A model generated the notes under the pieces. The model was given only the letters and a program-made list of their open reading frames with translations, had not been told where the DNA came from and did not search any database. From an uncultured Clostridia bacterium (GTDB lineage: Bacteria; Bacillota; Clostridia; Christensenellales; UBA3700): 53,063 bases of DNA. Each line of letters begins with the position of its first letter. The first letter of the stretch is position 1. Location of the stretch: the NCBI GenBank assembly GCA_947177795.1, contig CAMWVR010000004.1, positions 1 through 53,063 on the forward strand, in the 5' to 3' direction. Shown piece by piece: positions 1 through 49,448 of the stretch. The position numbers were made by a program, and so were the translations under genes.

Positions 1-26
1 GATTAACAAGTTTGAGGAGTGCACAC

Positions 27-983
27 TTGAGAAAAGCATTAATAGTAGGAATAGATAATTATGTTGAAGTGGGTGATCTTTATGGCTGTGTAAATGATGC
101 ATGTGCGATTGCAAATATTTTATCACGTAATGCCGATGGATCGTTGAATTTTGATATTAAGAAAATGTTATCAACTTCGGAAAATAATATTGTTACGAAA
201 AGTGACTTGGAAGATGCAATAATGGAACTATTTTCGGGAGAAGATGAGTTAGCGTTATTTTATTTTTCCGGACATGGATACACAGAAGATAACAATGGAT
301 ACATAATAACTTCAGACGTCAAATTAAGAGGTCGTAATGGAATAAAAATGGATGATATTATGCAGTGGTGTAATAAGTCTAAGGTTAAAAATAAAATTTT
401 AATATTTGATTGTTGTCATGCTGGGGCGGCTGGAGATGATAAATATTTTAATAGCAATTCAATTATTGGAGAAGGGGTTACTATTTTAAGCGCTTGTACA
501 AAAGGTCAATATGCGCTTGAGGAAAGGGGGCATGGTGTTTTTACTAACTTATTGGTTGATGCTTTAAATGGTAGTGGTGCAAATATTCTGGGACAAATAA
601 CCCCTGGTAGCGTTTATGCTCATATAGACCAATCGTTGGGGGCGTGGTCACAGCGTCCAGTTTTCAAAACTAATGTCGAGCAATTTGTAAGTTTAAGACA
701 AGCATTGCCGTCAATAGCAATGGACGATCTTAGACAGATAACTTCATTGTTTACAAATCCAAATGAAGAGTTTAAATTAAATCCTACATTTGAGCCAGAT
801 AGTATGTGTCCAGATAATGAGAACACTAGAAAGTTTGCAATATTGCAGAAAATGGTAAGGGTTAACTTGGTTGTTCCTGTAGGGGAGCAACATATGTATT
901 ACGCAGCGATGAATTCTAAAGCTTGTAAATTAACGGCGCTTGGAGCGCATTATTGGCAATTAGTAAAAAACGAAAGAATTTAG
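27..983 (+). CDS. Caspase-like cysteine peptidase (C14/metacaspase-type catalytic domain) with an uncharacterised ~100-aa C-terminal domain
   Basis: ORF track 12..983. Dyad-like motifs FYFSGHGY (His) and FDCCHAG (Cys). GAGGAG at 14-19 lies 7 nt before TTG at 27 (M-RKALIVGIDNY), so 27 is preferred over the track start at 12. Confidence 0.8.
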   Translation: MRKALIVGIDNYVEVGDLYGCVNDACAIANILSRNADGSLNFDIKKMLSTSENNIVTKSDLEDAIMELFSGEDELALFYFSGHGYTEDNNGYIITSDVKLRGRNGIKMDDIMQWCNKSKVKNKILIFDCCHAGAAGDDKYFNSNSIIGEGVTILSACTKGQYALEERGHGVFTNLLVDALNGSGANILGQITPGSVYAHIDQSLGAWSQRPVFKTNVEQFVSLRQALPSIAMDDLRQITSLFTNPNEEFKLNPTFEPDSMCPDNENTRKFAILQKMVRVNLVVPVGEQHMYYAAMNSKACKLTALGAHYWQLVKNERI

Positions 984-993
984 GAGTACAAAT

Positions 994-1380
994 ATGAGAA
1001 AGAAAGCTTTTATAAGTTTTGACTATGATCATGACGAGGAATTAAAAGTTGCTTTAGTAGGCCAAGCCAAAAATCCAGATTCCCCGTTTTCAATTAATGA
1101 TATGTCCATAAAGGAAGCTATTACATCAAATTGGAAATATTATGCAAGGCAGAGAATTAGAAAGTGTGATGTAGTAATTGTTATTTGTGGTCGTTATACT
1201 AATACAGCAACAGGGGTGTCGGCAGAATTAACAATTGCACAGGAAGAAGGAGTCCCATATTTTCTTTTATGTGGGCGAGCAGACGGTAATGTAGTAAAAC
1301 CAAGGGGAGCTCTTTCAACGGATAAAATATATACTTGGTCTTGGGAAAATTTAAAGTTATTAATAAACGGTAAAAGATAG
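994..1380 (+). CDS. TIR-like domain protein (MTH538/DUF1863-type TIR-like fold)
   Basis: 128 aa. The N-terminal KKAFISFDYDHD segment, then VVIVICGRYT and ELTIAQEEGVPYF, are typical of the TIR-like flavodoxin fold. AGGAG RBS upstream. 10-nt gap to the caspase-like gene. Confidence 0.7.
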   Translation: MRKKAFISFDYDHDEELKVALVGQAKNPDSPFSINDMSIKEAITSNWKYYARQRIRKCDVVIVICGRYTNTATGVSAELTIAQEEGVPYFLLCGRADGNVVKPRGALSTDKIYTWSWENLKLLINGKR

Positions 1381-1437
1381 ATAATTATGTACTACGCGCC
1401 TATCTATGCGTAGATTTTGCCATATTCACACACCAGG

Positions 1438-1468
1438 GCAGTCTCGAGGTATCGAGACTGCTATTTTT
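1438..1468 (+). terminator. Rho-independent terminator of the caspase/TIR-like operon
   Basis: gcagtctcga-ggta-tcgagactgc gives a 10-bp perfect stem, followed by tattttt. Confidence 0.8.
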
Positions 1469-1556
1469 GTGGGATAACTGCGACAGCGTTGCATTTTTGT
1501 GAAATTTTTTGGTTATTTTTATATGGCATTTTATAATTTTAGTAAATAAAATGTTA

Positions 1557-1583
1557 ATTCCAAAAAAAGTATACTTTTACTGA
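1557..1583. repeat. Left arm of a 27-bp perfect inverted repeat
   Basis: attccaaaaaaagtatacttttactga. Its exact reverse complement occurs at 1666-1692. Confidence 0.95.
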
Positions 1584-1626
1584 CTGACGCGATTAATGAC
1601 GCGAAAAAGCGATTTTTGATGGATTT

Positions 1627-1655
1627 ATTATATTTTGAAGAGGTTTTTTTGTCAA
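1627..1655 (-). promoter_or_regulatory. Perfect consensus sigma-70-type promoter inside the IR-flanked segment, currently firing leftward
   Basis: The minus strand reads TTGACA (1655-1650), a 17-nt spacer aaaaaacctcttcaaaa, then TATAAT (1632-1627). An A/T-rich tract lies upstream of the -35 box. Confidence 0.7.
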
Positions 1656-1665
1656 TATTTTTTAA

Positions 1666-1692
1666 TCAGTAAAAGTATACTTTTTTTGGAAT
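1666..1692. repeat. Right arm of a 27-bp perfect inverted repeat
   Basis: tcagtaaaagtatactttttttggaat is the exact reverse complement of 1557-1583. The arms are separated by 82 bp. Confidence 0.95.
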
Positions 1693-2063: not shown

Positions 2064-5000
2064 ATGAATACGGCGAAGAGTAAATCGGGAAAAATTATTT
2101 GGGTAGTTTTAGCAGCGGTCCTTATTGCGTTCTTGTCAGTGAGCGCATGGTTATCTTTACCTGCTTTTAAGAAAAGTTTTAAAGGCGAAAGCGATACGCC
2201 TATTTCAAATACGGCATTAACGAAATTCAATAAGTTTCAAACTTACGTTATGGCATCTTCGTCGGAAAAAGCCGGCGCATACGCCAATAAACTTGGTATT
2301 CCATCAAAAGATTATATATATATCAGTACTAGCGCAATGAAAATCGAAGGCGGCGTTTGGAACGGTATGAGTTCTACCGACGCCATAGGTAAATACGTTC
2401 ACTTGCTTTTGCCGAACGAAGTCACGTCAATCGATGCAAGTTCGACGAGTACCGCAAACGGTATCGCTTCGGTTATATGGCTTTCTATTACGGCAGATGA
2501 AGGCAGTAATCTATCTTCCATCTCAGGCGCTACCATGGTGGATTCTACCGTGGAAACTGCGTTTAGGAACGGTTGGTTGGAAAGAATAGATTTGAGCAAA
2601 GCAACAAAGTTGAAATCAATTCCCGCATACACGTTTACCGCTTGCGATAGATTGTATGACGTGGCGCTTCCCGATAGCATTACGTCGATAGGAGATAGGG
2701 CCATAGTCGGAAATGCGTTGTGTCATATATCCTTACCCTCGGGACTCGGAGCCGACGGGGGCGGTCTTCATGCCAATGCATTTAACGGTTGCGGAAAACT
2801 AGTTGAAATCGAATTGCCGTCTAACGCCAATAGCACTTTCGTCAATAAAGTTAAAGGTATGGCCTCGATAAGCGAAGCATATCTAAACGTATACGTCAAA
2901 GGAGAGGGACGCTCTTGGTTGGTTCGCACCGCAGACGGTTTTGTATTTTGCAAAAATCTCTTAAGAACAACTTTGCTTGCCAGCGGACTGACGTCTAATG
3001 AAAGTTATACAATCGGCAGATGGTATATGGTAGGATATCACGGAGCAGAGAGCGGCGGAGATACCGTCAATGCGTCGGATAATTATAACGTAATATTACC
3101 TAAGCAAGTAGACCTTGCAAAAAATTCGGATAATCGCTTGGGACAATTTGATTATATCGATTGCTCGGGCAGCGAATTGCAAAACGATTTCAGCGAATTT
3201 ACTACGCAAACGCAACTTGGCAGTAACGTTGCCGTAAATGGGGCAACGGCAAACGGCGACGCAGATGGAATGCGCATAATAGCGGGCGTCCAAAGCGGAG
3301 TAAAGTTGAGATACGATATAGGCAGGCAGGCGTTCTATTATCGTTGGGTATGGCACACTACGATTCCCGACGACGCCGTTAATACAATTGGAGACAGAGC
3401 TTTTCATAATGCGCCGATATGGACGTTTAATTTGGGAGACGTCGCAAAAGTCGGAAGTAAAGGACTGGCTTTTTTGGGAAGAACAACGGGTCTCGTTTTC
3501 TATCTTCCATCTAACAATCCGATAGTGGCTAGCGACGGGTTTTCTTATTCGTTATCTAACGTAACGCGATTGTTTATTTATCGCAATTATGCAGATTACG
3601 ATAATTATTATGTTAATACTGCAACTTACGCTAACAGCGGACTACAAAAGGCTGCGAAAGATTTTTCTGTAGGATCAGGAAAATACTACTCTTATTTAAT
3701 AAATATATTGCCTAACGTGGCTGAATGGGATACGACGGAAAACGAATATCAGTATAAAGCCCACGAAGAAGCTAAGATGCAACGACTATATACGGGAAAT
3801 TTGGCAAAATACGACGGTAATCTTTATAATAACACTTTTAAATACGTGCGTAAAGATTACGACGTATGGGTATATGAAGATCAGTCTTTCCCGTCTATGA
3901 CGGAACAAACGGGATACGCTAAGACCAGCTGGTTTACGGATACGAGTTTTAATAATACCTACACCGAGACTTTGATGAGCGTCGCAGACGCAGGCAGTAA
4001 CGTTACGTCGCTTCGCAATGCCGCAAGCAAGGGCGTTGACGTAATAAATATGTACGCCAAAAAGATAGTGTCCGTCACTCTTGAGAATAAGACGAGAGAG
4101 TATAAAGACAGGTCGTTGCAAGCTCACGAGACGGAAATCACGGGAATACCTTTGGAAATACAGGGCGACTATACGGTGGAAGTAACGCATTACGTAGACA
4201 GCAACGGTATCGAGAAAGATTATAGTTCTATCGGCTCGCTTATTCAAGAAGCGGGTATATATACTATTCAGGTTCAACCCAACGTGAAGTACGGAGAATG
4301 GGACGCAAAAGACGTGCCGACGATGACCGTCACTGTAAATAAGACGGAAATAGATTTGGGAGACTCGAGTATCTTCCGTCTTGGCGTTACGGACGGCATG
4401 ACTCTCAACAATCTCCGTCCCGGAAAGGAAGTCCCCGGTGAGCAGGGTACTTCGCTCTATAAATATAAAAGTTCTTGGTATACCGATAAACAAACCGACG
4501 ATACGCTGGGAGAGTTGATAGAGCAAAGAGACGGGCTTTGGAACAGTTTTGTCCGCGCAGAAGGCGAGGAGATGAAGTTTAGACTCACTCTTATTACCGA
4601 AGTTATCAAGGACGCGCACGACGACAAAACGGGAATTTTTCGGTGTAGTTTCCCCGGTACGGCCAGAAGCGAGTCGGGCGAGTATACCGATCAATTTACA
4701 GTCGAGTTGACGGAAAAAGCAAAAAACAACTATAAATTCGTCGTGACGAACGACTCGTCCCGTCAATTTTACGGATATCCGAACGCCGATCAATCCTTGG
4801 CGACGATCAACAAAACTTGGTATATCGTAAAGCTCAACAACTGGCTTACGACACAGGGAAATAAAGGTAACGACGCGCCGTCTTATCATATGGCGTCGGC
4901 TTGGGAATTCGGTTCTCACGACGTGCCCGAAGCTCCTGCGGTCGCGCTGGGAGACGACGTGAATATCACGTTTAGTTTGGAGCTGACGTCGCAATATATC

Positions 5001-8000
5001 ATCGGCGGCAGCGGTACTTTGATACTGTCGACTGATGAGAAAGGAGACCCTATATCTATTGATAAATACGGCGAGTATATCAATAGCGCATTGCCCGTGG
5101 GCAATTATAGGATCATATATTCGGTTGACTTTAAGAATAACGACAGTACTAAATTCGATACGTTCCAACAAAGCTTTGCCTTTACCGTATACGAAAAAGA
5201 ATTCGTGACGGAAGAAAGCGAGGCTATTAATCAATTGAAGGGCATGACCTTTGAATACGACATGACAATCGCATCGGACTCCTATAAGGAAAACAAAGCC
5301 CTATTTGATTTGAGCAAGCTGAGCTCTACGAGCAAACTGCAAGACATGTTGGGACTCAACGACGCAACGGTGGGTAACACCAAGCGCGTGGGAATATGGG
5401 AAAAGTCTGATTACGACGTTTTCTTCGACAAGCATTTTGAAATTTCTTACAACCTTAACCGTATGTGGAATAATACGTATCTCAATTTGGACGCGCTCCA
5501 AAAAGATTACGCAATGAATACGCCCGACCTATATACCGTGTATTATCAGTTGACGTGCAAAAACCGTAAGTCGCTCGTCAATGAAAACGACGACGCCCGC
5601 AGACAATGCTGTTTTTACGTAGTGGTATATAGAACGCTGAGTACGCCGACGCTGGATGATATAGTGTACACGGGCTTGGATATATATCCGACGATAAAGT
5701 ATCTCAACGGCGAGTTGGCTTTTGAGCAATCGTACTATACGGTATCTTACCCGACGGGTCAAGACAACGTGAATAACGGCGAAAAGAAGGCTATTCTTAA
5801 AATATCCGATAGAGACTATCAACTATACCGTTGGGCGGAAGGAGCGACGGCGGAATACGACGAAAAAATCGTTGAGATATCTTATAAGATTATTGCCGCA
5901 AACAATAGAACTATCGCTCCGCTTTATATGGCGGATTGGTCTTGGAACAGCGAGATCAATTTGGACAATATCGTATGGGAAACGCAATTCGGCAACGTCA
6001 AAGAAAATTTTAAGTTTACTCTCGTGCCCGTACGCAACGGCGAAGACGACGACAGAGAGAACGTCACTGATATCTCAAAGTTTGGAGTTGCGTCGGCAGG
6101 AGTATATACCTTGCACGCATACTGTCCCGCAGATGAGAACGGCAATTGGAATGAATACGAGCAGACTATTACGATAACCGTATCCAAGGCGGTCAACACT
6201 TGGTTTAAGTCGCCGAGTATTACCTCTTGGAGTTGGAATCAATATGAAAATTACGATTGGAGTCTCGGAAGTCCTATAGAGATCCACGCAATACCCAATT
6301 ACTATACTACGTCGACGGAGCGTGAGACAGGATCGGGAAGATTCGACTTCAGAATCTATTCTATCAATGCGGGCGCTACGGGCGACGATAGGTATAACGT
6401 TGTGTATTTCGGCGACGATTTCCACTTCCAATTCGAAAAAGACGCCGACGGGAATTTCTTGACTAACGGAGTCGACCCCAAAGACGGCGGACACTTCAAA
6501 CTACCTATAGACGTTGCGAAAAAACTTGCGACTCTTCCCGCAGGACAGTATTATTTGGTAGCTACCGTCTACGGTCATAATAATTTTACGGGTCTAAACA
6601 ATACGGAGGAATCTTTTGCAAAAGGCGCAGTGCCCTTTACGATTGCTTCTGCAAACAACGTTTGGTCGGATACTATCACTGCGTCCGACTGGGCGTATTC
6701 GGAATTTGAACTAGGCCGTCACATACACACCGGCGAAACAAAGTATGAAACTCAACTTAAATACGTACTGTATACCGACAATACGACGGACGTCGTGACG
6801 GTGGAGGGCGTAAAGCTCGAAAATATCATTGATTTTAACGCTGTCGCGCCGGGATCGAAGTATACATACGCTCAACTCGTCAATATGCTCGGCGTGGGCG
6901 CTTATATGCTCAGAGTACACGGCGACGCCGCACAGCGCAACGAAAGAGGCGGTGTCAATTATCTTGCAATCGACGATCAACGTAAGATTTTGGTCACAAA
7001 AGCCGCAAATACTCTCAGCGATACCTTTACCGTCGACGCTTATACGATAGGATCGAGTACGGAAGGTTTGATTCCCAAATATACAGCCCGCTTTGACAGC
7101 ACACTTGACAGTCCAAACGTAGGCTACCGCATCTCTCAAGGCGGCAAGTACGTCGACGGATTGAGCGATACTTTAACGTCCGACGATATAATAGATTTTA
7201 GCAACTCGTTGACGTATGAAAACTTGTTGAAAAAAATAGCTCAACTCTCAAGTGACGAGAGAGGAAACCAATATACAGTATGGTGGACGACCGTCGGCAG
7301 CGATAACTATTCCGCTCAATACGGTTCAAGAGCCTTTTGGGTATATCTGGGTCAAAACGCTTGGGCAGACGAAGCGCCTAGTATGAACGATTGGACTTAC
7401 GACAAGACGGCGCACGACTTCGATAAGAGCAGCGTAAATCTCGTGCACGAAGTGGACGAGAGCAAGATCAGCGTCGATTATTACGTCGCTACGCTCAACG
7501 AGGACAACGGTCAATACGTCATAGGCTCGTCCTTGACGGGTTGTCCGATTGACACGGGAGTTTATTTCGTCAAAATCACGGTGGGTTCGGACGAATATTA
7601 CAGAGGCTTGTCCGTGGATTTGTTCTTCCGTATAAATATGGCGGACAACGGCTTTAAGACTATGCCGTCGATAAAAGACAACGGCTGGGATTATTCGCAG
7701 TTGCAACTCGAAGATATCAATATAGGTTCGCCTATCAACGAAGAAGAGAATATGGATATCAGATACGTCGTTACCCGTCCGATCAGCGGCAGCGCCGAAG
7801 AAGAACTTATAGCTACGCTGTCTTGGGTGTTGGGACGGGAAATCAACAACAATTTGATTGCTTTGGATTCGTTCTATTCCAAACTCAACGCTTTGGACGT
7901 GGGAGAATATAAATTGAAAATCACGCTTTCGTCTTCGGCTAACTTTAAAGAAACGGCGCTTGATACAATCACGTTGAAAGTAAGTCGGGCTGTGAACGGA

Positions 8001-10952
8001 TACGCAGACGGCAAGTCGCCGACGATCGTCGACAACGCAACCGAGTGGGAGTGGAATGAATATGACGAATCGCTTTGGAAAGAAGTCGCAAGCAAGTTCG
8101 GCGAGATTTCTATCTATATCGACGGAGACGCAGTCGCAGCTTTGTCGGTAACCAATCATCTGTCGAGACTCGAAGTGGGAGAGCATAAAATCAGATTCTT
8201 CGTAAAAGCTACCTCAAACTACGAGGGCTTTGACGAAACGCGTAACTTCTCCGTAATCAAAAACAAAAACGGTTGGAAAGACGGGGATAAAGATAATACG
8301 GCGTTTGTCAACGATTGGACTTGGGGCGAATACGACAACGATATTTCCGGAGGAAGTCCGATATGGAAAGAGCCTTCTCCCAATTACGGTACGTCGCAGG
8401 CTGCGATATACAAAGGTAAAGACGGAGTGGGCGGCGTATTGGTAAGAAGCAACGTAGCGTTGTATTCGCTGGATATAGTAATGAATTCTCTCGACGCAGG
8501 TATGTATTACGTAATTTGGACGGTCGTGGGAGATACCAACTACGAATCCATAACGCGCGAATACATTAACTTCCAAGTAAACGTCAACGAAAACCAATGG
8601 GACCCCGATAAACTTGCTACTATGCGTCCAAACGACAAGAAAGAAACGTCGGGCATAGAGTACGGTTGGACTTGGGGCGAGTACGGAAAAGACGCCGACG
8701 TAGATTACTTTACCGCTCCCGTAGCAAAGTACGGACTCGTGGTGGCAAAGATAACCAAATACGACTCGACCTGGAACAATCCCGAGGTCATTGTCGACGG
8801 TATTTCCAATTCTATCAGTATAGCCAATACCTTGGACCGTCTTGCCGTAGGTAGATATAGAATCGAGTGGTCGGCTACGGATCCCAACGCCACGGGCAAC
8901 TTTAAAGAAATAAGTTATCCCGACGCAATCGAGTTTATAATAAACAGAGGAGTCAACGCCTGGACGGGCGATAAGCCATTTATAGACGGCTGGCAGTGGG
9001 GAGCCTTTGACAGCAGTCTGTGGAAAGCGCCCGGGCTGGCATCTGGCAGTCCCAACGCAACGGTAATAATGCTCAATAGCGACGGAACGGACGGAGCGCA
9101 TATAATCGAGAAAATCTCCGCAGAGTATCTAAGCGCCCAACTTGCTTTGCTCGAAGTGGGCAATTACCGCCTCGTATGGACTGCGGACGAAAACGACAAT
9201 TATGAAATCGAAGGCGAGAACGAAGACGATTTGAGATTCCAAGTATCCGTCAACGTCAACGGGTGGGTAATCAAACCCGAAATTACGGCAACGGACAGTA
9301 AGTGGCAGTGGAAAACCTTTACGTTGGGATTTTGGCAAAGACCCGAGGCGCAATATCATCACAACGATATAAGCGCAACGGTATATAAACTCAAAGACGG
9401 CTATGACTTCGAATACGATGAATTCAATAAAAAATATATACTGGACGAGAGCAAATGCGACGTCATCGACGGTATCACGCTCTCTACTCTCGACGCAATC
9501 AATAATCTGTCTATAGGCAAATACCTAGTCAAAGTAAGCGTACCTCAAGACGCTCACGGGAGATTCTTGGGATTGGAGTCGGTGCTGCCCTTTACTATCG
9601 TGGCTAACGAGAATGATTTCATTTCTAAATCTTGCCATATCAACGGATACGCATACGCAGACTTCAGAGGATATTGGAGCGCGCCTGCCGCGCAGTTCGG
9701 CGATATTATCGCAAGCGTATATGCGATGAAAGACGGCGTCAGAGAATTGGTGGCAACGTCTCATACGGATCGTCTCAACGACGTACTCAAAGAGCTTCAT
9801 GCGGGTAACTACGAGGTGGATTGGACTATCTCCGAAGATCCCGACGGAAACTATCTCGGCGGTAAAACTACGACGAGCGCGTTCACAGTAAGCAAGGCGG
9901 ACAACAAGTGGTTGAATAAACCCGCTATTAACGGTTGGGCATGGGGATCGTTCGACGCCGAAAATTCGGGACTCAACGCCCTTCCGCTCAATACTCAAGA
10001 AGGCGTCGCCGTATATTACAAGATAGTAGACGAATCTTATAACGATATCGGCGAGTTCAACGGATACGTAGACGCTCAAGGATACTTTACGGATATAGCC
10101 AAGGTTGCGGAAGCTCTCAAGAAGCTCAAACCCGCTAAGTATCATCTTTTGGCGTACTATCCCGAGATTGACGATTATAACGTACTCGACGATAATAACG
10201 ACTGCGAGTTTGCCGTCAAACATGCCGAAAATAAGTGGTTAATGACGCCTGATATCGTGGATTGGGTCTACGGCAGTCCTGTCAATAAGCCTACGGGCAG
10301 CGCAATTTACGGCGAAGAAATCAAGTATACTTACTATAAAGCTGTACTCGACGCCAACGGCGAACCCGTATTCAAAAACGGTAAATATCAAGTCGTGGAA
10401 AACTCCGCGTTTAGCGGCTGGAGCAAAGACGAAATCGCAGACGCAGGCGTATATATCGTGCAGGCGGACGTGGAGGGCAGCGAATATTACGCTCCGCTTT
10501 CTACGCAGTTCGTGCTTCGCATATCTAATTCTAAATACAACTATTGGAAGACTCAACCGATAATTCAAAGTTGGGTGTCGGGTTCCGATAAATGCTTGCC
10601 CGAAGGAGAGGCGGCGTACGGCAGTATTACTTGGACGTATTATAAGGCCGCTTGGAGCGAAGCGCTAAATAAATGGGTTCCGACGGGCGAGGCGCTCTCT
10701 ACCGACGGACAAAATCCCCCGGAGGAAGTAGGTCAATATATTCTCGTCGCAAGCGTCGGCGCTGCGGAAGGATATAACGCTTTGATAGCAAACGTATACT
10801 TTGAGATATACGAAAGAGCGACGGCGGCAATCTCGAGCGACTTGCTCGTGTATATAGACATAGCGTTGGCAACGGCGGCGTCAATATTTACAATAGTAGT
10901 CATAAGCGCAGTAGTAAGGAGGTATAGAAAGAATGACAGCGTTAATGAATAA
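2064..10952 (+). CDS. Giant (2962 aa) cell-surface protein: N-terminal signal-anchor helix, BspA-type leucine-rich repeats, many Ig-like/Trp-rich tandem modules, C-terminal TM anchor
   Basis: Strong RBS GAAGGAG before the ATG. N-terminal helix IIWVVLAAVLIAFLSVSAW. LRR motif IPAYTFTACDRLYDVALPDSITSIGDRAIVGN. C-terminal helix LLVYIDIALATAASIFTIVVISAVV followed by RRYRK. All other-frame ORFs inside are short shadows. Confidence 0.9.
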   Translation: MNTAKSKSGKIIWVVLAAVLIAFLSVSAWLSLPAFKKSFKGESDTPISNTALTKFNKFQTYVMASSSEKAGAYANKLGIPSKDYIYISTSAMKIEGGVWNGMSSTDAIGKYVHLLLPNEVTSIDASSTSTANGIASVIWLSITADEGSNLSSISGATMVDSTVETAFRNGWLERIDLSKATKLKSIPAYTFTACDRLYDVALPDSITSIGDRAIVGNALCHISLPSGLGADGGGLHANAFNGCGKLVEIELPSNANSTFVNKVKGMASISEAYLNVYVKGEGRSWLVRTADGFVFCKNLLRTTLLASGLTSNESYTIGRWYMVGYHGAESGGDTVNASDNYNVILPKQVDLAKNSDNRLGQFDYIDCSGSELQNDFSEFTTQTQLGSNVAVNGATANGDADGMRIIAGVQSGVKLRYDIGRQAFYYRWVWHTTIPDDAVNTIGDRAFHNAPIWTFNLGDVAKVGSKGLAFLGRTTGLVFYLPSNNPIVASDGFSYSLSNVTRLFIYRNYADYDNYYVNTATYANSGLQKAAKDFSVGSGKYYSYLINILPNVAEWDTTENEYQYKAHEEAKMQRLYTGNLAKYDGNLYNNTFKYVRKDYDVWVYEDQSFPSMTEQTGYAKTSWFTDTSFNNTYTETLMSVADAGSNVTSLRNAASKGVDVINMYAKKIVSVTLENKTREYKDRSLQAHETEITGIPLEIQGDYTVEVTHYVDSNGIEKDYSSIGSLIQEAGIYTIQVQPNVKYGEWDAKDVPTMTVTVNKTEIDLGDSSIFRLGVTDGMTLNNLRPGKEVPGEQGTSLYKYKSSWYTDKQTDDTLGELIEQRDGLWNSFVRAEGEEMKFRLTLITEVIKDAHDDKTGIFRCSFPGTARSESGEYTDQFTVELTEKAKNNYKFVVTNDSSRQFYGYPNADQSLATINKTWYIVKLNNWLTTQGNKGNDAPSYHMASAWEFGSHDVPEAPAVALGDDVNITFSLELTSQYIIGGSGTLILSTDEKGDPISIDKYGEYINSALPVGNYRIIYSVDFKNNDSTKFDTFQQSFAFTVYEKEFVTEESEAINQLKGMTFEYDMTIASDSYKENKALFDLSKLSSTSKLQDMLGLNDATVGNTKRVGIWEKSDYDVFFDKHFEISYNLNRMWNNTYLNLDALQKDYAMNTPDLYTVYYQLTCKNRKSLVNENDDARRQCCFYVVVYRTLSTPTLDDIVYTGLDIYPTIKYLNGELAFEQSYYTVSYPTGQDNVNNGEKKAILKISDRDYQLYRWAEGATAEYDEKIVEISYKIIAANNRTIAPLYMADWSWNSEINLDNIVWETQFGNVKENFKFTLVPVRNGEDDDRENVTDISKFGVASAGVYTLHAYCPADENGNWNEYEQTITITVSKAVNTWFKSPSITSWSWNQYENYDWSLGSPIEIHAIPNYYTTSTERETGSGRFDFRIYSINAGATGDDRYNVVYFGDDFHFQFEKDADGNFLTNGVDPKDGGHFKLPIDVAKKLATLPAGQYYLVATVYGHNNFTGLNNTEESFAKGAVPFTIASANNVWSDTITASDWAYSEFELGRHIHTGETKYETQLKYVLYTDNTTDVVTVEGVKLENIIDFNAVAPGSKYTYAQLVNMLGVGAYMLRVHGDAAQRNERGGVNYLAIDDQRKILVTKAANTLSDTFTVDAYTIGSSTEGLIPKYTARFDSTLDSPNVGYRISQGGKYVDGLSDTLTSDDIIDFSNSLTYENLLKKIAQLSSDERGNQYTVWWTTVGSDNYSAQYGSRAFWVYLGQNAWADEAPSMNDWTYDKTAHDFDKSSVNLVHEVDESKISVDYYVATLNEDNGQYVIGSSLTGCPIDTGVYFVKITVGSDEYYRGLSVDLFFRINMADNGFKTMPSIKDNGWDYSQLQLEDINIGSPINEEENMDIRYVVTRPISGSAEEELIATLSWVLGREINNNLIALDSFYSKLNALDVGEYKLKITLSSSANFKETALDTITLKVSRAVNGYADGKSPTIVDNATEWEWNEYDESLWKEVASKFGEISIYIDGDAVAALSVTNHLSRLEVGEHKIRFFVKATSNYEGFDETRNFSVIKNKNGWKDGDKDNTAFVNDWTWGEYDNDISGGSPIWKEPSPNYGTSQAAIYKGKDGVGGVLVRSNVALYSLDIVMNSLDAGMYYVIWTVVGDTNYESITREYINFQVNVNENQWDPDKLATMRPNDKKETSGIEYGWTWGEYGKDADVDYFTAPVAKYGLVVAKITKYDSTWNNPEVIVDGISNSISIANTLDRLAVGRYRIEWSATDPNATGNFKEISYPDAIEFIINRGVNAWTGDKPFIDGWQWGAFDSSLWKAPGLASGSPNATVIMLNSDGTDGAHIIEKISAEYLSAQLALLEVGNYRLVWTADENDNYEIEGENEDDLRFQVSVNVNGWVIKPEITATDSKWQWKTFTLGFWQRPEAQYHHNDISATVYKLKDGYDFEYDEFNKKYILDESKCDVIDGITLSTLDAINNLSIGKYLVKVSVPQDAHGRFLGLESVLPFTIVANENDFISKSCHINGYAYADFRGYWSAPAAQFGDIIASVYAMKDGVRELVATSHTDRLNDVLKELHAGNYEVDWTISEDPDGNYLGGKTTTSAFTVSKADNKWLNKPAINGWAWGSFDAENSGLNALPLNTQEGVAVYYKIVDESYNDIGEFNGYVDAQGYFTDIAKVAEALKKLKPAKYHLLAYYPEIDDYNVLDDNNDCEFAVKHAENKWLMTPDIVDWVYGSPVNKPTGSAIYGEEIKYTYYKAVLDANGEPVFKNGKYQVVENSAFSGWSKDEIADAGVYIVQADVEGSEYYAPLSTQFVLRISNSKYNYWKTQPIIQSWVSGSDKCLPEGEAAYGSITWTYYKAAWSEALNKWVPTGEALSTDGQNPPEEVGQYILVASVGAAEGYNALIANVYFEIYERATAAISSDLLVYIDIALATAASIFTIVVISAVVRRYRKNDSVNE
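5886..10810 (+). repeat. At least 15 tandem protein-coding modules (~95-115 aa each) within the giant gene
   Basis: Each module opens with a recurring N-x-W ... W-x-W motif. Examples: NTWFKSPSITSWSWNQYE, NAWTGDKPFIDGWQWGAFD, NKWLNKPAINGWAWGSFD, NGWVIKPEITATDSKWQWKTF, NYWKTQPIIQSWVSGSD. Each has a mid-module G-x-Y hydrophobic core. Confidence 0.8.
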
Positions 10953-12282
10953 TGCATTGCTTGCAATTGAGATCAGTCAAACTTCTCTCATCGTTTTAAT
11001 GGCGGTGTTGATAGTTTTGATAATTTTGCTCGCAGTGTTGGCAACAATATTTATTTTGGGAGTGAAGAGAAGAAGCGAAGTCATAACGCAGCCCGATATT
11101 GCGACGGTCGTCGCAGTCGTTGACAATGCGGCGGGTAAGATCGTGTTGAAAGACGAGAACGATATGGAGAAGTCGCTATTCAAACTCGGCGAAACGGTAA
11201 AGGTCGTCGTCAACGCCAACGATGGGTATATTCTATCCAATATCTCGGTAGAAGTAAACGAAAACGTCGTCGCGCGCTTTAAATCCGAAAGCGGCGAAAA
11301 AATGATCTTTGACGGAGTATACGAATTTATAGTCGCGGCAAATACCGTCGTCAAAGCCGAATTCCAAGCTCAAACCGAGCCAATGCCGGAGCCCGAAGTA
11401 TTTACCTTTGACGAACGCTTTAACGGAGTCGGCGGTAAAGTCGTCTTGACCAACGCCGCAGGCGAAGAAAAGAATCAATTCGTCGCAGGCGAAACCGTCA
11501 GAATATCGACGTTCGCAGACGAAGGATACTATCTTGCTCGCTTTGCTATAGACGACGAAGAGAGAGAACTCGTCGAAGGAGTATACGAATTCGTAGTTAC
11601 GGCTGCCGTCAAGATCGACGTAGAGTTCTTGCCTATTCCCGCTGTCGAAGAAGTGACGGCAGAGCCCGAAATAGCGGCTACTAATGCCGTCGACGAGGAC
11701 GAAGAGGAAGAGGAAGTAATGTTTGACGGACACAACGTAATTCGTTTTAACAAGAGCTTTACGGCAAAACTCATTCAGATAGACGACGTATCCAACGCTT
11801 GGTATACGGAATTGAAAAACGAACTTTTGTCTTATAAAAAAGTAAAAGACAGAATGAGCTGGAAACGCGAAAGCTACCGCTTTGGCAAGGTATGCGTAGC
11901 CAGATTCGTAATAAGAGGTAAGACGCTGTGTATCCAACTTCCGCTCGATCCGACTCAATTCGAAGATACTAAATATAAGGTCGAAGATATATCTCATATT
12001 ATTTCAAGCGCAGATACTCCATGCCTTTATAGAATCAAGAACGAGCGTCGTTTGAACTACGCTAAAGATCTTATCGCTCAAGTCATGGAAAATATGGGAA
12101 CTACGCGTATTGAGCGCGAGTGGGTAGACTATTATCAACCTTATGACACGACTCTCAATCTTATCGAGCGTCAACTCGTCAAAAAAACCGTTAAGTTTAA
12201 CGGTAAGACGGGATTCGGAGGTATTGTAGAAAAACTCACGGAAGACCCGACCAAAGCGCAAAATAATAGCGACGATAAGTAA
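10933..12282 (+). CDS. Membrane-anchored protein with two InlB-B-repeat-like beta modules, an acidic linker and a conserved C-terminal domain of unknown function
   Basis: AAGGAGG RBS. Overlaps the end of the giant gene by 20 nt. TM helix LIVLMAVLIVLIILLAVLATIFIL. Internal duplication GKIVLKDEN..GETVKVVVNANDGYIL / GKVVLTNAAGEE..GETVRISTFADEGYYL. Acidic run DEDEEEEE. Confidence 0.8.
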   Translation: MTALMNNALLAIEISQTSLIVLMAVLIVLIILLAVLATIFILGVKRRSEVITQPDIATVVAVVDNAAGKIVLKDENDMEKSLFKLGETVKVVVNANDGYILSNISVEVNENVVARFKSESGEKMIFDGVYEFIVAANTVVKAEFQAQTEPMPEPEVFTFDERFNGVGGKVVLTNAAGEEKNQFVAGETVRISTFADEGYYLARFAIDDEERELVEGVYEFVVTAAVKIDVEFLPIPAVEEVTAEPEIAATNAVDEDEEEEEVMFDGHNVIRFNKSFTAKLIQIDDVSNAWYTELKNELLSYKKVKDRMSWKRESYRFGKVCVARFVIRGKTLCIQLPLDPTQFEDTKYKVEDISHIISSADTPCLYRIKNERRLNYAKDLIAQVMENMGTTRIEREWVDYYQPYDTTLNLIERQLVKKTVKFNGKTGFGGIVEKLTEDPTKAQNNSDDK

Positions 12283-15569: not shown

Positions 15570-17360
15570 ATGAAAGAAATTAAGTCATACGAATTGAGAG
15601 AAAAATACCTTAAGTTTTTTGAGGAGAAAGGACACAAGATTATTCCGTCGGCGTCGTTGATACCCGAAAACGATCCGTCGGTGCTTTTTACGACGGCAGG
15701 TATGCACCCCCTCGTGCCGTATCTTTTGGGACAAAAGCACCCCGGCGGCAAGAGGCTTTGCGACGTGCAGAAGTGCGTGCGCACGGGAGATATAGACGAA
15801 GTGGGCGACGCTACGCACTGCACCTTTTTTGAGATGCTCGGTAACTGGTCGCTGGGAGATTATTTCAGAAAAGAGTCTATCAACTTTTCGTTTGAATTTT
15901 TGACCAAGGTATTGGAGATACCCGTGGAGAAGATAGCCGTCACGGTATTCGCAGGCGACGAGGACTGTCCGCGCGACGAAGAGGCGGCGGATACTTGGGC
16001 TAGTCTGGGGATACCAAGAGACAGGATATTCTATTTGCCTAAGGCAAACAATTGGTGGTACGCAGGCGCTACGGGTCCTTGCGGAAGCGACACGGAGATA
16101 TTTATAGACACGGGTAAAGAGGCTTGCGGCGATCATTGCGACCCAAGCTGCGATTGCGGAAAGTGGGTGGAGATCTGGAACAACGTGTTTATGGAATTCA
16201 ACCGCAACGCAGATGGTAAATTCGAAAAGCTCTCTCAACGCAACGTCGATACGGGCATGGGCTTGGAGCGCACCATTTGCATGCTCAACGGCTTTAAGTC
16301 GGTGTATGAGACTGACCTCTTTGCAGACGCTATCGCCAAGATAGGCGAACTTGCAGGTAAGAAGTACGGAGAGAATGAAGAAGACACGAGGGCAATGCGT
16401 ATAATTGCCGATCATATCCGTACGGCTACCTTCCTTCTCGGCGACGAGAGAGGCGTCGTTCCGTCCAACGTAGACCAAGGCTACGTATTGCGCAGACTTA
16501 TACGCAGAAGCGTGAGATTTGCCCGTCAATTGGGCATTGCTCCGCAAGATTTGGTAAGCATTGCAAAGCTTTACGTCGAGCAATACGAGAACGTATACGA
16601 AGAATTGAAGGTCAACAGCGGGAAGATATACGATGAACTCGAAAAGGAGATAGACAAGTTTTCCAAGACCTTGGAAGACGGCATCAAACAGCTTGACAAG
16701 GTGCTTCAATTCGTCAAGGGAGATACCCTCAACGGCAAGACGGCGTTCAGACTTTACGATACCTACGGTTTTCCAATCGAGATGACTGTGGAGATATGCA
16801 AAGAAAAAGGCTTTGGCGTGGATATAGAGGGATATAAACTTGCGCAGGAAGAGCATATCAAGAAGTCGCAGCAGGGCGCAGAACAGAAGTTCAAGGGCGG
16901 ACTTGCCGACAGCAGCGAGATGACGACTTATTTGCATACGGCAACGCACTTGTTGCTGGCAAGTCTGAAAAAGGTCCTTGGCGACGACGGCATTCAGCAA
17001 AAGGGCAGCAATATCACTCCCGAGAGATTGAGATTTGATTTCAACTTCCCGCGTCCGTTAACGGCGGAAGAAAAGCAAGCCGTCGAAGATGCGGTCAACG
17101 AGGCGATTGCAAGAGATATTCCCGTCGTGTGTATGGAAATGCCTATCGAGGAAGCAAGGGAGAAAAATGCAGTCGGCGTATTCGGCTCTCGCTACGGCGA
17201 AGTGGTCAAGGTATATCAAATAGGCGACGTGGATTTGCAGATATGCGGAGGGCCTCACGCTGAGCATACGGGACAGCTCGGTCACTTCACGATTGAGAAA
17301 GAACAGTCGTCTTCGGCGGGTATTCGCAGAATAAGAGCAACCGTACAACCAAAACAATAA
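15570..17360 (+). CDS. alaS: Alanine--tRNA ligase, unusually short form (596 aa)
   Basis: AlaRS catalytic motifs FEMLGNWSLGDYF and DTGMGLERT. Editing-core HxxxH (HTATHLL) and CGGPH. The protein ends just after GIRRIRA. Confidence 0.9.
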   Translation: MKEIKSYELREKYLKFFEEKGHKIIPSASLIPENDPSVLFTTAGMHPLVPYLLGQKHPGGKRLCDVQKCVRTGDIDEVGDATHCTFFEMLGNWSLGDYFRKESINFSFEFLTKVLEIPVEKIAVTVFAGDEDCPRDEEAADTWASLGIPRDRIFYLPKANNWWYAGATGPCGSDTEIFIDTGKEACGDHCDPSCDCGKWVEIWNNVFMEFNRNADGKFEKLSQRNVDTGMGLERTICMLNGFKSVYETDLFADAIAKIGELAGKKYGENEEDTRAMRIIADHIRTATFLLGDERGVVPSNVDQGYVLRRLIRRSVRFARQLGIAPQDLVSIAKLYVEQYENVYEELKVNSGKIYDELEKEIDKFSKTLEDGIKQLDKVLQFVKGDTLNGKTAFRLYDTYGFPIEMTVEICKEKGFGVDIEGYKLAQEEHIKKSQQGAEQKFKGGLADSSEMTTYLHTATHLLLASLKKVLGDDGIQQKGSNITPERLRFDFNFPRPLTAEEKQAVEDAVNEAIARDIPVVCMEMPIEEAREKNAVGVFGSRYGEVVKVYQIGDVDLQICGGPHAEHTGQLGHFTIEKEQSSSAGIRRIRATVQPKQ

Positions 17361-17410: not shown

Positions 17411-18190
17411 ATGGCAAGCAAGTTTCCCATTGTCCTGGTGTATGGAATATTCGTCAAAGAGATGAAATATTTCAAAGCATTCGGGAGCATAGAAAAAGTG
17501 TTGAAAAATGCCGGCTACGATGTCTATACGGCGCGTACCGACAGTTTTGGCACTGTGGAAAACAACGCTTTGCAATTGAAAGAGCAAATCGAGATTTTAC
17601 TTCAAAAGAGACGCGCGGAAAAAGTCAACGTAATCGCATATTCAAAAGGCGGACTTGACGCAAGATATTTGATAGAAAAACTCGATATGGAAAAATACGT
17701 TGCTTCGCTTACCACCATATCGGCTCCGCACAAAGGCACGAGACTTGCTACGAGATTTTATTCTTATCCCAAATGTATATTAAAGCCCTTTACCTTTTGT
17801 CTAAACGGTCTTTATAAGATTTTGGGAGATAAAAAGCCCAATTCTCTCGAAGTATTGAAAAGTCTTCAAGAAATTCCCGACGAGGAATACTCAAACGAGG
17901 TCGTATGCGCATCGGTATACTCTCAGAGTTATTCGTTGAGAATGGATAAATACGGCGACGATATACTCCTGGGAATACCCTTTGCTTTAATGAAAAAAAT
18001 CGACGGCAGTAAGTGCGACGGGGCAGTGACTCACGAGTCGTCCAAGTGGGGAGAATATAAAGGACATTGCACGGATACGCCTATGTCGCACCGCCAAATA
18101 ATAGACTTTTTGGTGGGCAAAAAGAAAAAACAAAAGATATATGAATTTTATCTTTCGCTTTGTCAAGACTTGGCAGATAGAGGTTTTTGA
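17411..18190 (+). CDS. Lipase/esterase-family alpha/beta hydrolase (paralog 1)
   Basis: 259 aa. Nucleophile-elbow-like AYSKGG. AAGGAG RBS. Clear paralog of the next gene. Confidence 0.75.
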   Translation: MASKFPIVLVYGIFVKEMKYFKAFGSIEKVLKNAGYDVYTARTDSFGTVENNALQLKEQIEILLQKRRAEKVNVIAYSKGGLDARYLIEKLDMEKYVASLTTISAPHKGTRLATRFYSYPKCILKPFTFCLNGLYKILGDKKPNSLEVLKSLQEIPDEEYSNEVVCASVYSQSYSLRMDKYGDDILLGIPFALMKKIDGSKCDGAVTHESSKWGEYKGHCTDTPMSHRQIIDFLVGKKKKQKIYEFYLSLCQDLADRGF

Positions 18191-18251
18191 CGCATAAAAA
18201 TAAACTTGCATTGACGTCTGTTAAATCAGACGCAACGAAAGGGAGAAAACT

Positions 18252-19031
18252 ATGAGCAAATATCCTATAGTGTTGGCGCACGGAATAGTAGTAAAAGACT
18301 TCAAATATTTTAAGGCTTTCGGTCAAATAGAAAAAGCCTTGAAAGATGCCGGTTACGTAGTTTATACATCCGATACCGACGGGTTTGGCACGATTGACGG
18401 CAACGCCCTGCAATTGAAAGAACAAATACAAAAAATACTGACCTTACACAATGTGGACAAGGTAAACATTATTGCGCATTCCAAGGGCGGACTCGACGCC
18501 AGATATATGATAGAGAGGCTGGATATGCAAGATAGCGTTGCGTCGCTTACGACGATTTGTTCGCCGCACAAGGGATCCAGACTTGCCACGAAGTTGTATT
18601 CTCTTCCAAAATGGCTGTTGAAATTCGTGGCGTTTTGGTTAAACTTTTGGTACAGGATTTTCGGCGATAAGAATCCCAACGCTCTCGAAGTGCTGAGACA
18701 ACTCAAAGAGATACCCGCAAGCGAGTATAATAACGCCGTGATTTGCAAATCCGTATACTCTCAAAGTTATTCGGCGATAATGAAACGCAGCCGAGACGAC
18801 TTTGTCTTGGGGGTTCCGCTCAGAATCATTCAAAACGTGGAAAAAAACAAACAATCCGACGGAGTCGTAAGCGTAGAATCGTCCAAGTGGGGCGAGTATA
18901 AGGGCAATTGCCTTGACGAATCGGTTTCGCATACTCAAATAATCGACTTCATGTCGAGTAAAAAGAAAAGACAAAAAGTGCATGACTTTTATCTTTCGAT
19001 ATGTCGGGATCTGACGGAGCGTGGATTTTAG
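18252..19031 (+). CDS. Lipase/esterase-family alpha/beta hydrolase (paralog 2)
   Basis: 259 aa. AHSKGG elbow. Colinear with 17411..18190 along its full length. Confidence 0.75.
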   Translation: MSKYPIVLAHGIVVKDFKYFKAFGQIEKALKDAGYVVYTSDTDGFGTIDGNALQLKEQIQKILTLHNVDKVNIIAHSKGGLDARYMIERLDMQDSVASLTTICSPHKGSRLATKLYSLPKWLLKFVAFWLNFWYRIFGDKNPNALEVLRQLKEIPASEYNNAVICKSVYSQSYSAIMKRSRDDFVLGVPLRIIQNVEKNKQSDGVVSVESSKWGEYKGNCLDESVSHTQIIDFMSSKKKRQKVHDFYLSICRDLTERGF

Positions 19032-34929: not shown

Positions 34930-35916
34930 ATGGATAAATATATACCGCCTTATGACTTAACAGACGAAATGCTTGATTTAGTTGCTCAAATTATGGAAAC
35001 GCTTGGGCAATTGAACGGCGTTAACGGACTGGAAAAACTTCCCAAACTGCGCAGAGTGAGCAGAATCAAGTCCATACATTCGTCTCTTGCGATAGAAAAC
35101 AATACGTTGTCTATTGAACAAGTCACTGACGTAATTGACGGCAAGAGAGTATTGGGACCGCAAGAAGATATTTTGGCAGTGAGAAATGCTAACGAAGCAT
35201 ATAAAATTTTAGAAGAAATTGACCCCTATGAGATAAAAGATTTGCTTAAAGTACACGGCGTTATGATGCAAGGGCTTGTAGCAGAAGCGGGGCAACTGAG
35301 AACAGGACAAGTTGGCGTGTATAACGGTGATGGAGAAGTGATTCATATTGCACCGTCTTCTGATATTGCGCCTACGTTACTTACAGGGCTATTTAATTGG
35401 GTAAAGACCTCAAAAGTCAATATGTTAATAAAATCAAGCATATTTCATTATGAATTTGAATTTATCCATCCTTTTAGAGACGGCAATGGCAGAACAGGTA
35501 GACTTTGGCAAACGGCGTTGCTTGCAAGTTGGAAGGATATATTCGCTTGGATACCTATAGAAAGTATAATTAAAGACAATCAGGAAGAATACTATAAAGC
35601 AATTATGCAGTCCACAAGTCAAGGTAAATCCAATGCCTTTATTGTATTTATGCTAGACATCATTAACAAAGCAATTAAAGATATAGTCAAAGATACGACA
35701 AATCACTTCAATCATATCAATAATTATATTGCTTCTTTGCTTAAAGTCGTAGATAGTTATCCTCAATCGGCAAAAGAACTTATGGCAAAACTTAATTTAA
35801 AATCAAAAGACAGTTTTAGAAAGAACTATTTATATCCTGCAATTGACGCGGGGCTTGTGGGAATGACCGAGCCGGATAAACCCACGAGTAAAAATCAAAG
35901 ATATTTCAAAATCTAA
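34930..35916 (+). CDS. Fic-family protein (class II, intramolecular inhibitory motif)
   Basis: Fic motif HPFRDGNGRTGR. N-terminal inhibitory-type motif SLAIEN, matching (S/T)xxxE(G/N). Confidence 0.9.
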   Translation: MDKYIPPYDLTDEMLDLVAQIMETLGQLNGVNGLEKLPKLRRVSRIKSIHSSLAIENNTLSIEQVTDVIDGKRVLGPQEDILAVRNANEAYKILEEIDPYEIKDLLKVHGVMMQGLVAEAGQLRTGQVGVYNGDGEVIHIAPSSDIAPTLLTGLFNWVKTSKVNMLIKSSIFHYEFEFIHPFRDGNGRTGRLWQTALLASWKDIFAWIPIESIIKDNQEEYYKAIMQSTSQGKSNAFIVFMLDIINKAIKDIVKDTTNHFNHINNYIASLLKVVDSYPQSAKELMAKLNLKSKDSFRKNYLYPAIDAGLVGMTEPDKPTSKNQRYFKI

Positions 35917-49208: not shown

Positions 49209-49326
49209 AGTTTTCCCTCCTATTATAATATATTCAATATAAATATATATTGTTAACTATAATTTTTGCTAAATATAAAAATAATAATCAAAATAAATTT
49301 TAATCTTTTGTATTAGGAGTATTTAT

Positions 49327-49356: not shown

Positions 49357-49448
49357 TAGAAGCTTAAAAATTTATTAAAAATTTTTAACCTAATTTTACG
49401 CTACACGGCATACATAATTGCGCAACGAAGTCGAATAATATGAAAAGT

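What the first reader, a model, noticed from the sequence alone, without database searches (positions are those of the whole stretch)
27..1468. Caspase-like protease + TIR-like protein cassette (Thoeris type IV-like architecture)
**Seen in sequence**
- Two tightly linked genes (10-nt gap) share one terminator at 1438-1468.
- The first gene encodes a C14-type protease with an intact His/Cys dyad (SGHG, DCCHAG). It also has a ~100-aa C-terminal domain I cannot place (PSIAMDDL...YWQLVKNERI).
- The second gene encodes a 128-aa stand-alone TIR-like protein.

**Established knowledge**
- A TIR protein paired with a caspase-like protease was recently described as type IV Thoeris.
- In that system the TIR makes an N7-cADPR signal that activates the protease.

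**Inference**
- This pair may be a member or divergent relative of that system.
- The unplaced C-terminal domain would be the candidate ligand sensor.
- The TIR here looks like the DUF1863/MTH538 flavour, which may make it a distinct subtype.
- The cassette is AT-rich and sits at the window edge, so further components could lie upstream.
Basis: partly seen in the sequence, partly recalled or inferred. Interest (0 to 1): 0.7.

Follow-up and report, generated by a model that had tools for sequence, protein, structure and literature searches.

The report
Type IV Thoeris caspase–TIR defence operon
These two genes are a clear new copy of an already described bacterial anti-phage system (type IV Thoeris), in which a small TIR enzyme makes an alarm molecule that switches on a caspase-like protease; it is a correct call but an ordinary one.

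Summary
Window 27-983 encodes a 318-aa Peptidase_C14 protein with an intact His83/Cys130 dyad. After a 10-nt gap, 994-1380 encodes a 128-aa ThsB-type TIR protein. A strong terminator closes the pair at 1437-1462.

- The protease is 48% identical over its whole length, "unplaced" C-terminal domain included, to the caspase next to the validated E. coli 328 TIR gene.
- The TIR is 31% identical, end to end, to the validated Pseudomonas sp. 1-7 TIR. Its catalytic Glu79 aligns with window Glu78.
- Both validated TIRs also hit PF08937 (formerly DUF1863), so that flavour is normal for type IV Thoeris.
- 74 of 79 homologous protease loci, from Bacteria and Archaea, carry an adjacent co-directional TIR.
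- Close relatives of the cassette lie beside type I restriction-modification genes, AbiTii, an integrase and a transposase.
- Upstream sequence from the source contig shows a 300-bp intergenic region and unrelated genes, so there are no extra components.

The likely mechanism is inferred by homology. On infection the TIR makes N7-cADPR, which activates the arginine-specific protease and aborts the infection.

Verdict: new member of a known kind, low interest.

The parts
14..19 (+). Shine-Dalgarno GAGGAG, 7 nt before the TTG start of the protease gene
   Evidence: Read directly from the sequence. Supports the TTG at 27 as the start.
27..983 (+). thsE: caspase-like protease effector, 318 aa, TTG start, TAG stop
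   Evidence: Peptidase_C14 at E 2e-21. PADLOC caspase at 7e-21. 48% identity over the full length, E 4e-109, to the caspase adjacent to EcTIR. More than 7,900 homologues of about 317 aa.
27..641 (+). Caspase/metacaspase-fold catalytic domain (residues 1-205). His83 is codon 273-275 and Cys130 is codon 414-416. Invariant acidic residues: D24, D128, E165.
   Evidence: Invariant columns in 13- and 36-sequence alignments. AF2 model with pLDDT 86; the best Foldseek matches are MALT1 paracaspase, yeast metacaspase and caspase-4/11, at E 1e-13 to 1e-9.
687..980 (+). Conserved C-terminal domain (residues 221-318), the predicted N7-cADPR sensor
   Evidence: 23 invariant residues here, including HMYxAA, C300, LT, G306 and HYW. 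Aligns through to the last residue of the E. coli caspase. Domain model pLDDT 80. Only weak winged-helix (MarR-like) fold matches, E >= 0.025, TM about 0.5. The sensor role is the hypothesis of Rousset et al..
983..986 (+). GGAG Shine-Dalgarno of the TIR gene, within the 10-nt intergenic gap
   Evidence: Read from the sequence.
994..1380 (+). thsB: stand-alone TIR (ThsB-type), 128 aa, predicted signal synthase. Catalytic Glu78 is codon 1225-1227.
   Evidence: PF08937 at E 2e-7, above the cut-off. 31% identity, E 7e-17, end to end with PsTIR. Glu78 aligns with PsTIR Glu79 and is conserved in at least 90% of 48 aligned TIRs.
1437..1472 (+). Intrinsic terminator that closes the two-gene operon
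   Evidence: 11-bp stem with 6 G-C pairs, a 4-nt loop and the tail ATTTTTGTGG.

Best explanation

Shown here:
- The 128-aa TIR protein is a homologue of the validated type IV Thoeris TIRs and keeps the catalytic glutamate (E78).
- The 318-aa protein is a full-length homologue of the validated effector. It keeps the His83/Cys130 dyad, the acidic residues D24, D128 and E165, and every invariant residue of the C-terminal domain.
- The two genes form one operon with its own terminator, and they travel together between genomes.

Inferred from the experimentally studied homologues:
- On phage infection the TIR converts NAD+ into N7-cADPR.
- This small molecule binds the protease, probably at its C-terminal domain in a dimer, and switches on promiscuous cleavage after arginine.
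- Many host proteins (EF-Tu, ribosomal proteins) are cut, so the infected cell stops growing or dies before phage progeny are released.
For: Homology to the validated systems:
- Protease: 48% identity over 318/321 residues, E 4e-109, to the caspase 10 nt downstream of a TIR gene that is 100% identical to the cloned EcTIR sequence.
- TIR: 31% identity, E 7e-17, over the full length to PsTIR. PsTIR was translated from the cloned sequence in Table S2 of Rousset et al..

Catalytic residues:
- H83 and C130 are invariant. PsCaspase C129A abolishes defence.
- E78 aligns with PsTIR E79 and is at least 90% conserved. E79Q abolishes defence.

Published detection rule, with both parts met here:
- Caspase family homology.
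- A PF08937 hit above the cut-off.

Pair conservation:
- 74 of 79 loci with a homologous protease have an adjacent co-directional TIR related to the window TIR, PsTIR or EcTIR.
- Both gene orders are listed in the published Table S1.

Defence context of close relatives:
- The 78% relative lies next to HsdM/HsdS/HsdR and AbiTii.
- The 79% relative lies next to HsdR.
- The 85% relative lies next to an integrase and a transposase.

Same signal across TIR subtypes:
- EcTIR metabolites activate PsCaspase although the two TIRs are dissimilar (section 8 of the paper).

Fold:
- The closest solved folds are MALT1 paracaspase and metacaspases, which cleave after Arg or Arg/Lys (my knowledge of these families).
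Against: - Nothing has been tested for this particular pair. Signal identity, protease activation, specificity and defence are all inferred from homologues.
- The TIR is only 31% identical to PsTIR and barely alignable with EcTIR.
- The immediate neighbours in this genome are not recognisable defence genes, so local context gives no support.
- PADLOC 2.0.0 predates type IV Thoeris and gives only a generic caspase hit and a weak ThsB hit.
- The caspase compared here comes from E. coli strain 165, not strain 328. The stored supplement cuts the construct before the caspase, so their identity is inferred from the 100% identical TIR gene.
Confidence: 0.88

Rival explanations
1. The architecture is the same but the signal differs. 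The window-type TIR clade makes another ADPR-derived molecule, and the C-terminal domain of this protease clade is tuned to it. That would be a functional subtype rather than plain type IV Thoeris.
For: - TIRs paired with this protease family fall into at least three sequence groups: window-like, Ps-like and Ec-like.
- The window TIR is only 31% identical to PsTIR.
- Thoeris TIR clusters are known to be shared between system types.
Against: - The C-terminal domain keeps all 23 family-invariant residues and is 48-60% identical across partners of all three TIR groups.
- EcTIR products activate PsCaspase despite dissimilar TIRs.
- In several loci one protease is accompanied by TIRs of two groups (L008, L019, L029, L031, L032, L050). 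That fits one shared signal.
Confidence: 0.07
2. The hierarchy is reversed. The caspase-like protease senses infection and cleaves the TIR protein into an NAD+-depleting effector, or the TIR-like protein is a SLOG-like ligand sensor rather than a synthase.
For: - The TIR gives weak hits to STALD/SLOG models: Pfam E 0.0026, PADLOC ThsA STALD 1e-4.
- TIR NADase effectors exist in CBASS, Pycsar and pAgo systems.
Against: - Rousset et al. tested exactly this for the Pseudomonas system. They found no TIR processing and only mild NAD+ loss.
- PsTIR gives a similar weak SLOG-family hit (cpYpsA), so such hits reflect fold likeness.
- The catalytic Glu is conserved.
Confidence: 0.03
3. The cassette is an inactive remnant, or serves a housekeeping or developmental proteolysis role unrelated to phage defence.
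For: - The local neighbours are housekeeping or surface-protein genes, with no PADLOC hits.
- The window lies in a core chromosomal region near rnpA/yidC.
Against: - Both ORFs are intact and keep all catalytic and invariant residues.
- Each gene has a Shine-Dalgarno sequence, and a terminator follows the pair.
- G+C is lower than the surroundings, which suggests acquisition.
- The same cassette sits in defence islands and mobile regions in relatives.
Confidence: 0.02

Closest known systems
Type IV Thoeris (ThsB TIR + ThsE caspase-like protease), Rousset et al., bioRxiv 10.1101/2024.10.24.620036 / Science 387:510 (2025). Validated systems from Pseudomonas sp. 1-7 and E. coli 328.
   Same: - A two-gene operon: a short stand-alone PF08937-type TIR with a catalytic Glu, and a protease of about 318 aa.
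[quoted passage not shown]
- 48% full-length identity to the E. coli caspase and 31% to PsTIR.
   Different: - The gene order is protease then TIR. The validated operons have TIR first. The window's order occurs in 8 of the 74 paired loci, many of them Clostridia or other Bacillota, and is also present in the published list.
- The window TIR belongs to its own sequence group, related to PsTIR.
- The host is an uncultured Clostridia-type bacterium.
- No experimental data exist for this copy.
Type I Thoeris (ThsB TIR + ThsA SIR2-SLOG)
   Same: A ThsB-family TIR acts as the infection-triggered signal synthase, and the PF08937 domain is shared.
   Different: The effector is an NADase activated by 3'cADPR through a SLOG domain. 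Here the effector is a protease, and no SIR2/SLOG gene is present.
Eukaryotic paracaspase MALT1 and metacaspases; type III CRISPR-associated PCaspase
   Same: - The same caspase-hemoglobinase fold, and the closest solved structures.
- An acidic S1-type residue pattern and cleavage after arginine (Rousset et al. for PsCaspase; my knowledge for MALT1 and metacaspases).
   Different: - Only 15-22% identity.
- Those proteases are activated by scaffolds, Ca2+ or upstream proteolysis, not by a TIR-made nucleotide.
- They lack the ThsE C-terminal domain.

Membership tests
Type IV Thoeris | Effector is a Peptidase_C14 protein homologous over its full length to PsCaspase/EcCaspase | tested here: met
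   - Pfam PF00656 at E 2e-21.
- 48% identity over 318/321 aa, E 4e-109, to the caspase adjacent to EcTIR.
- The first 9 residues match the cloned PsCaspase start, MRKALVVGI.
Type IV Thoeris | Intact catalytic His/Cys dyad in the protease (PsCaspase C129 is essential) | tested here: met
   H83 and C130 are invariant in 36 sequences. The requirement comes from the paper.
Type IV Thoeris | [quoted passage not shown] | tested here: met
   - Residues 221-318 align to the end of the E. coli protein.
- 23 invariant residues.
- Confident model, pLDDT 80.
- No significant solved-structure match.
Type IV Thoeris | Adjacent, co-directional short TIR protein matching PF08937 or PF13676 | tested here: met
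   - PF08937 at 31.8 bits, above the 21.2 cut-off.
- 10-nt gap.
- The same rule was used for the published detection.
- The pair is kept in 74 of 79 loci.
Type IV Thoeris | Catalytic glutamate in the TIR (PsTIR E79) | tested here: met
   E78 aligns with E79 and is at least 90% conserved in 48 TIRs.
Type IV Thoeris | TIR produces N7-cADPR on infection | not testable with these tools
   Needs LC-MS/NMR of infected-cell lysates. Inferred only from homology.
Type IV Thoeris | Protease is activated by N7-cADPR and cleaves after arginine | not testable with these tools
   Only indirect support: invariant D24, D128 and E165, and the best fold matches are paracaspase and metacaspase.
Type IV Thoeris | Confers abortive-infection-type phage defence | not testable with these tools
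   Close relatives sit beside type I R-M, AbiTii and an integrase. The window copy has no recognisable defence neighbours.
Type I Thoeris | SIR2-SLOG (ThsA) effector next to ThsB | tested here: not met
   No such gene lies within 10 kb upstream or downstream. Only weak STALD hits fall on the TIR itself.

The most novel reading that the evidence does not exclude
The Clostridia-type clade has the protease gene first and its own window-like 128-aa TIR group. It could sense a different phage trigger, or make and read a signal other than N7-cADPR. That would make it a functional subtype of caspase-based Thoeris in Gram-positive anaerobes.
Probability: 0.07. Interest if true: 0.5.

Novelty: new member of a known kind. 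Interest (0 to 1): 0.2.

Why it matters

Practical value is modest:
- A Gram-positive, AT-rich representative could be useful for testing the system in Bacillus or Clostridium hosts.
- The C-terminal domain is very strongly conserved: 50-79% protein identity from candidate phyla radiation (CPR) bacteria to methanogenic archaea. That, together with the weak winged-helix-like fold, may help people working on how N7-cADPR is recognised.

It does not open a new question.

Tried and rejected
- **Solved structure of the family.** The PDB sequence search found none. The best hits were yeast metacaspase (3e-6) for the protease, and an unrelated repeat-protein artefact plus a weak 'TIR' entry 8fz9 (E 0.14) for the TIR.
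- **Full-length fold search.** It was dominated by the caspase domain. I therefore modelled the C-terminal domain alone. That gave only non-significant MarR/PadR-like winged-helix matches, so I do not claim a fold assignment.
- **Extra components upstream.** Rejected using the source contig.
- **'Distinct DUF1863 subtype'.** Rejected, because PsTIR and EcTIR hit the same Pfam family.
- **The ATG 7 nt upstream of the window as start codon.** It is possible but has no Shine-Dalgarno, and it adds 11 residues that are absent from all homologues.
- **Full PsCaspase sequence.** It could not be recovered, because the stored supplement truncates each construct after about 400 nt. I used the E. coli locus instead.
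- **tRNA and Rfam scans of the window.** Both found nothing.
- **NCBIfam.** It gave only a sub-threshold 'caspase_w_EACC1' hit, 89.6 bits against a cut-off of 140. That is not an EACC1-type assignment.

Full report
**1. What is in the sequence**

The region holds two co-directional ORFs.

The protease gene:
- It is best read from the TTG at 27, preceded by GAGGAG at 14-19, to the TAG at 981-983. That gives 318 aa.
- Automatic gene calls on the source contig start at an ATG 7 nt before the window, giving 329 aa.
- That ATG has no ribosome-binding site. More than 100 top homologues are 317-318 aa and begin M-R/K-K-A-L, as does the cloned PsCaspase.

The second gene:
- It starts 10 nt after the stop (ATG at 994, GGAG at 983-986) and ends at 1380, giving 128 aa.

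The terminator:
- A stem of 11 bp with 6 G-C pairs plus a T-run lies at 1437-1472. It is the strongest of the terminator-like sites in the first 2.2 kb.

**2. Family assignment**

- ORF1 matches Peptidase_C14 over residues 1-204, E 2e-21. It also matches the PADLOC caspase model.
- ORF2 matches ThsB_TIR (PF08937, formerly DUF1863) above the curated cut-off.
- In alignments of 13 and 36 homologues, His83 (SGHG) and Cys130 (second Cys of DCCHAG) are invariant. So are D24, D128 and E165.

**3. Comparison with the validated systems**

Rousset et al. describe type IV Thoeris as follows (preprint 10.1101/2024.10.24.620036, published in Science 387:510):
- The TIR (E79 essential) makes N7-cADPR on infection.
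- The protease (C129 essential) is activated by N7-cADPR and cleaves many proteins after arginine, aborting the infection.

What I compared:
- From the cloned sequences in their Table S2 I translated PsTIR. It aligns end to end with the window TIR (31% identity, E 7e-17), with E79 opposite window E78.
- The EcTIR DNA is found 100% identical in 14 complete E. coli genomes.
- In strain 165 the gene 10 nt downstream is a 321-aa caspase family protein. It is 48% identical to the window protease over the whole length, including the C-terminal domain, E 4e-109.
- Both validated TIRs hit PF08937. The DUF1863/ThsB flavour is therefore the norm for this system and not a sign of a distinct subtype.
- The published detection rule is a PsCaspase-family HMM plus PF08937 or PF13676. 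The window pair meets it.

**4. Conservation of the pair**

- A scan of one genome per species found 530 loci encoding a relative of the protease. The best 80 are 50-79% identical and come from very diverse Bacteria and from methanogenic Archaea. This is a strongly conserved, horizontally mobile family.
- In 79 of these loci I could define the protease ORF. In 74 of them an adjacent co-directional ORF is homologous to the window TIR, PsTIR or EcTIR.
- Several loci have two TIRs of different groups, as in the published list.
- The TIR lies upstream in most loci. It lies downstream, as here, in 8 loci, many of them Clostridia or other Bacillota.
- Across 48 window-like and Ps-like TIRs, the catalytic Glu and a small set of other residues (F6, F9, Q24, P31, D36, S38, K40, W47, G74, A82, W116) are at least 90% conserved.
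- Of the five loci without a small TIR, four have other TIR-like or large N-terminally TIR-like or DUF4062-like neighbours. One has none. I did not follow these up.

**5. Context**

- The source contig gives 10 kb upstream: rnpA-yidD-yidC, yabP, a DUF4238 gene, a GyrI-like gene on the other strand and a 178-aa membrane-anchored protein. A 300-bp AT-rich intergenic region with only weak promoter-like matches then precedes the protease gene.
- None of the upstream proteins hits PADLOC.
- Downstream, after the terminator and a 680-bp spacer, comes a 2,962-aa BspA/LRR_5 surface protein.
- The rest of the window is housekeeping: AlaRS-like, SerRS, LeuRS, MetH, MetF, SpoIIE, SipL, and two-component and ABC systems. 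It is therefore the chromosome of a spore-forming Clostridia-type bacterium.
- The cassette and the roughly 6 kb upstream are lower in G+C (25-36%) than the following genes (42-47%), which is consistent with acquisition.
- Close relatives of the cassette have the same gene order and a 128-aa TIR but lie in quite different places:
  - next to HsdR and a KilA-N gene (79% relative);
  - next to an integrase, a transposase and a nucleotidyltransferase pair (85% relative);
  - next to HsdM/HsdS/AbiTii/DUF3800/HsdR (78% relative).
- The two genes therefore move as a unit and keep company with defence genes.
- In E. coli the system sits in a prophage between the lysis genes and the Q antiterminator.

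**6. Structure**

- The full-length AF2 model is confident (pLDDT 86, pTM 0.82). Low confidence is confined to residues about 131-170, the loop after the catalytic Cys. By inference this corresponds to the activation/inter-subunit loop of caspases.
- The nearest solved folds are MALT1 paracaspase, yeast metacaspases and caspase-4/11, E 1e-13 to 1e-9.
- No solved structure of the ThsE family itself is in the PDB copy.
- The C-terminal domain modelled alone has pLDDT 80. Its order of elements is short helices, a strand, a long helix, a strand, a helix, a strand and a helix.
- It finds only non-significant winged-helix matches (MarR, PadR), E >= 0.025, TM about 0.5. I treat 'winged-helix-like' as a lead only.
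- Rousset et al. propose that two C-terminal domains in a dimer form the N7-cADPR pocket. That remains untested.

**7. Mechanism and rivals**

The best explanation (0.88) is a functional type IV Thoeris system working as in the validated homologues. Shown here are homology, catalytic residues, operon structure, pair conservation and mobility. Signal identity, activation, arginine specificity and defence are inferred.

| Rival | Confidence | Main argument against |
|---|---|---|
| Different signal in this TIR clade | 0.07 | Near-invariant C-terminal domain across partners of all TIR groups; published cross-activation of PsCaspase by EcTIR products |
| Reversed hierarchy, or the TIR acts as a sensor | 0.03 | Tested and rejected for the Pseudomonas system |
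| Inactive or non-defence role | 0.02 | Intact genes and residues |

**8. Verdict**

The two side suggestions, a distinct subtype and upstream components, are not. This is a new member of a known kind and of low interest.

Noticed in passing
window 1557-1692: A perfect 27-nt inverted repeat (ATTCCAAAAAAAGTATACTTTTACTGA; arms 1557-1583 and 1666-1692) with 82 nt between the arms. It occurs nowhere else in the window (0 expected by chance). The spacer holds a 12/12 consensus sigma-70 promoter on the minus strand (TTGACA-17-TATAAT, 1655 to 1627) that points back toward the TIR gene. Its function is unknown. It could be a regulatory site for the giant downstream gene, a small antisense transcript or a remnant of a mobile element.
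   Followed up: partly
window 2064-12282: A 2,962-aa BspA-type LRR_5 surface protein with an N-terminal signal/TM segment and a C-terminal hydrophobic anchor. A 449-aa ORF with a divergent InlB B-repeat (Flg_new_2) overlaps its end by 20 nt.
   Followed up: no
window 48165-53061 (- strand): A tandem array of at least five paralogous lipoprotein-like genes (MKFFKRFFMAMLLIGVLSTS..C signal, 47-88% pairwise identity) with no Pfam match. The last one runs off the window end.
   Followed up: partly
window 17411-19031: Two tandem paralogous alpha/beta-hydrolase (Palm_thioest/DUF676-like) genes, each 259 aa and 61% identical to each other.
   Followed up: partly
window 15570-17360: The alanyl-tRNA synthetase-type ORF is only 596 aa (tRNA-synt_2c plus tRNA_SAD). 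That is shorter than the usual bacterial AlaRS of about 870 aa (length from my own knowledge), and the C-terminal part appears to be missing.
   Followed up: no
L001 5200-8700 (upstream of the window): A very AT-rich stretch (25-30% G+C) carries a 386-aa DUF4238 gene next to a GyrI-like gene and a 178-aa membrane-anchored protein. There are no PADLOC hits. Together with the Thoeris cassette it forms a roughly 6-kb low-GC island beside the rnpA-yidC region.
   Followed up: partly
L003 (E. coli strain 165, NZ_CP020509.1 3886579-3887956): The validated E. coli type IV Thoeris operon sits inside a lambdoid prophage, between the holin/lysozyme/Rz lysis genes and the Q antiterminator. This is a typical moron position.
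   Followed up: no
L045, L059, L079, L080, L036: Five ThsE-family protease loci lack a small ThsB-type neighbour. Four have instead larger neighbours whose N-termini look TIR-like or DUF4062-like: a 158-aa 'MPVFISHRTADD...', a 361-aa '...YDVFISHSTADKRG', a 1,031-aa 'MLDIFLSSTFKDLDY...' and a 771-aa 'IAIFISSRFSEF...'. These may be alternative sensor/synthase partners.
   Followed up: no
window 34930-35916: A 328-aa Fic/DOC family protein with a Fic-like C-terminal domain, followed by two ORFs with no Pfam match (157 and 215 aa).
   Followed up: no
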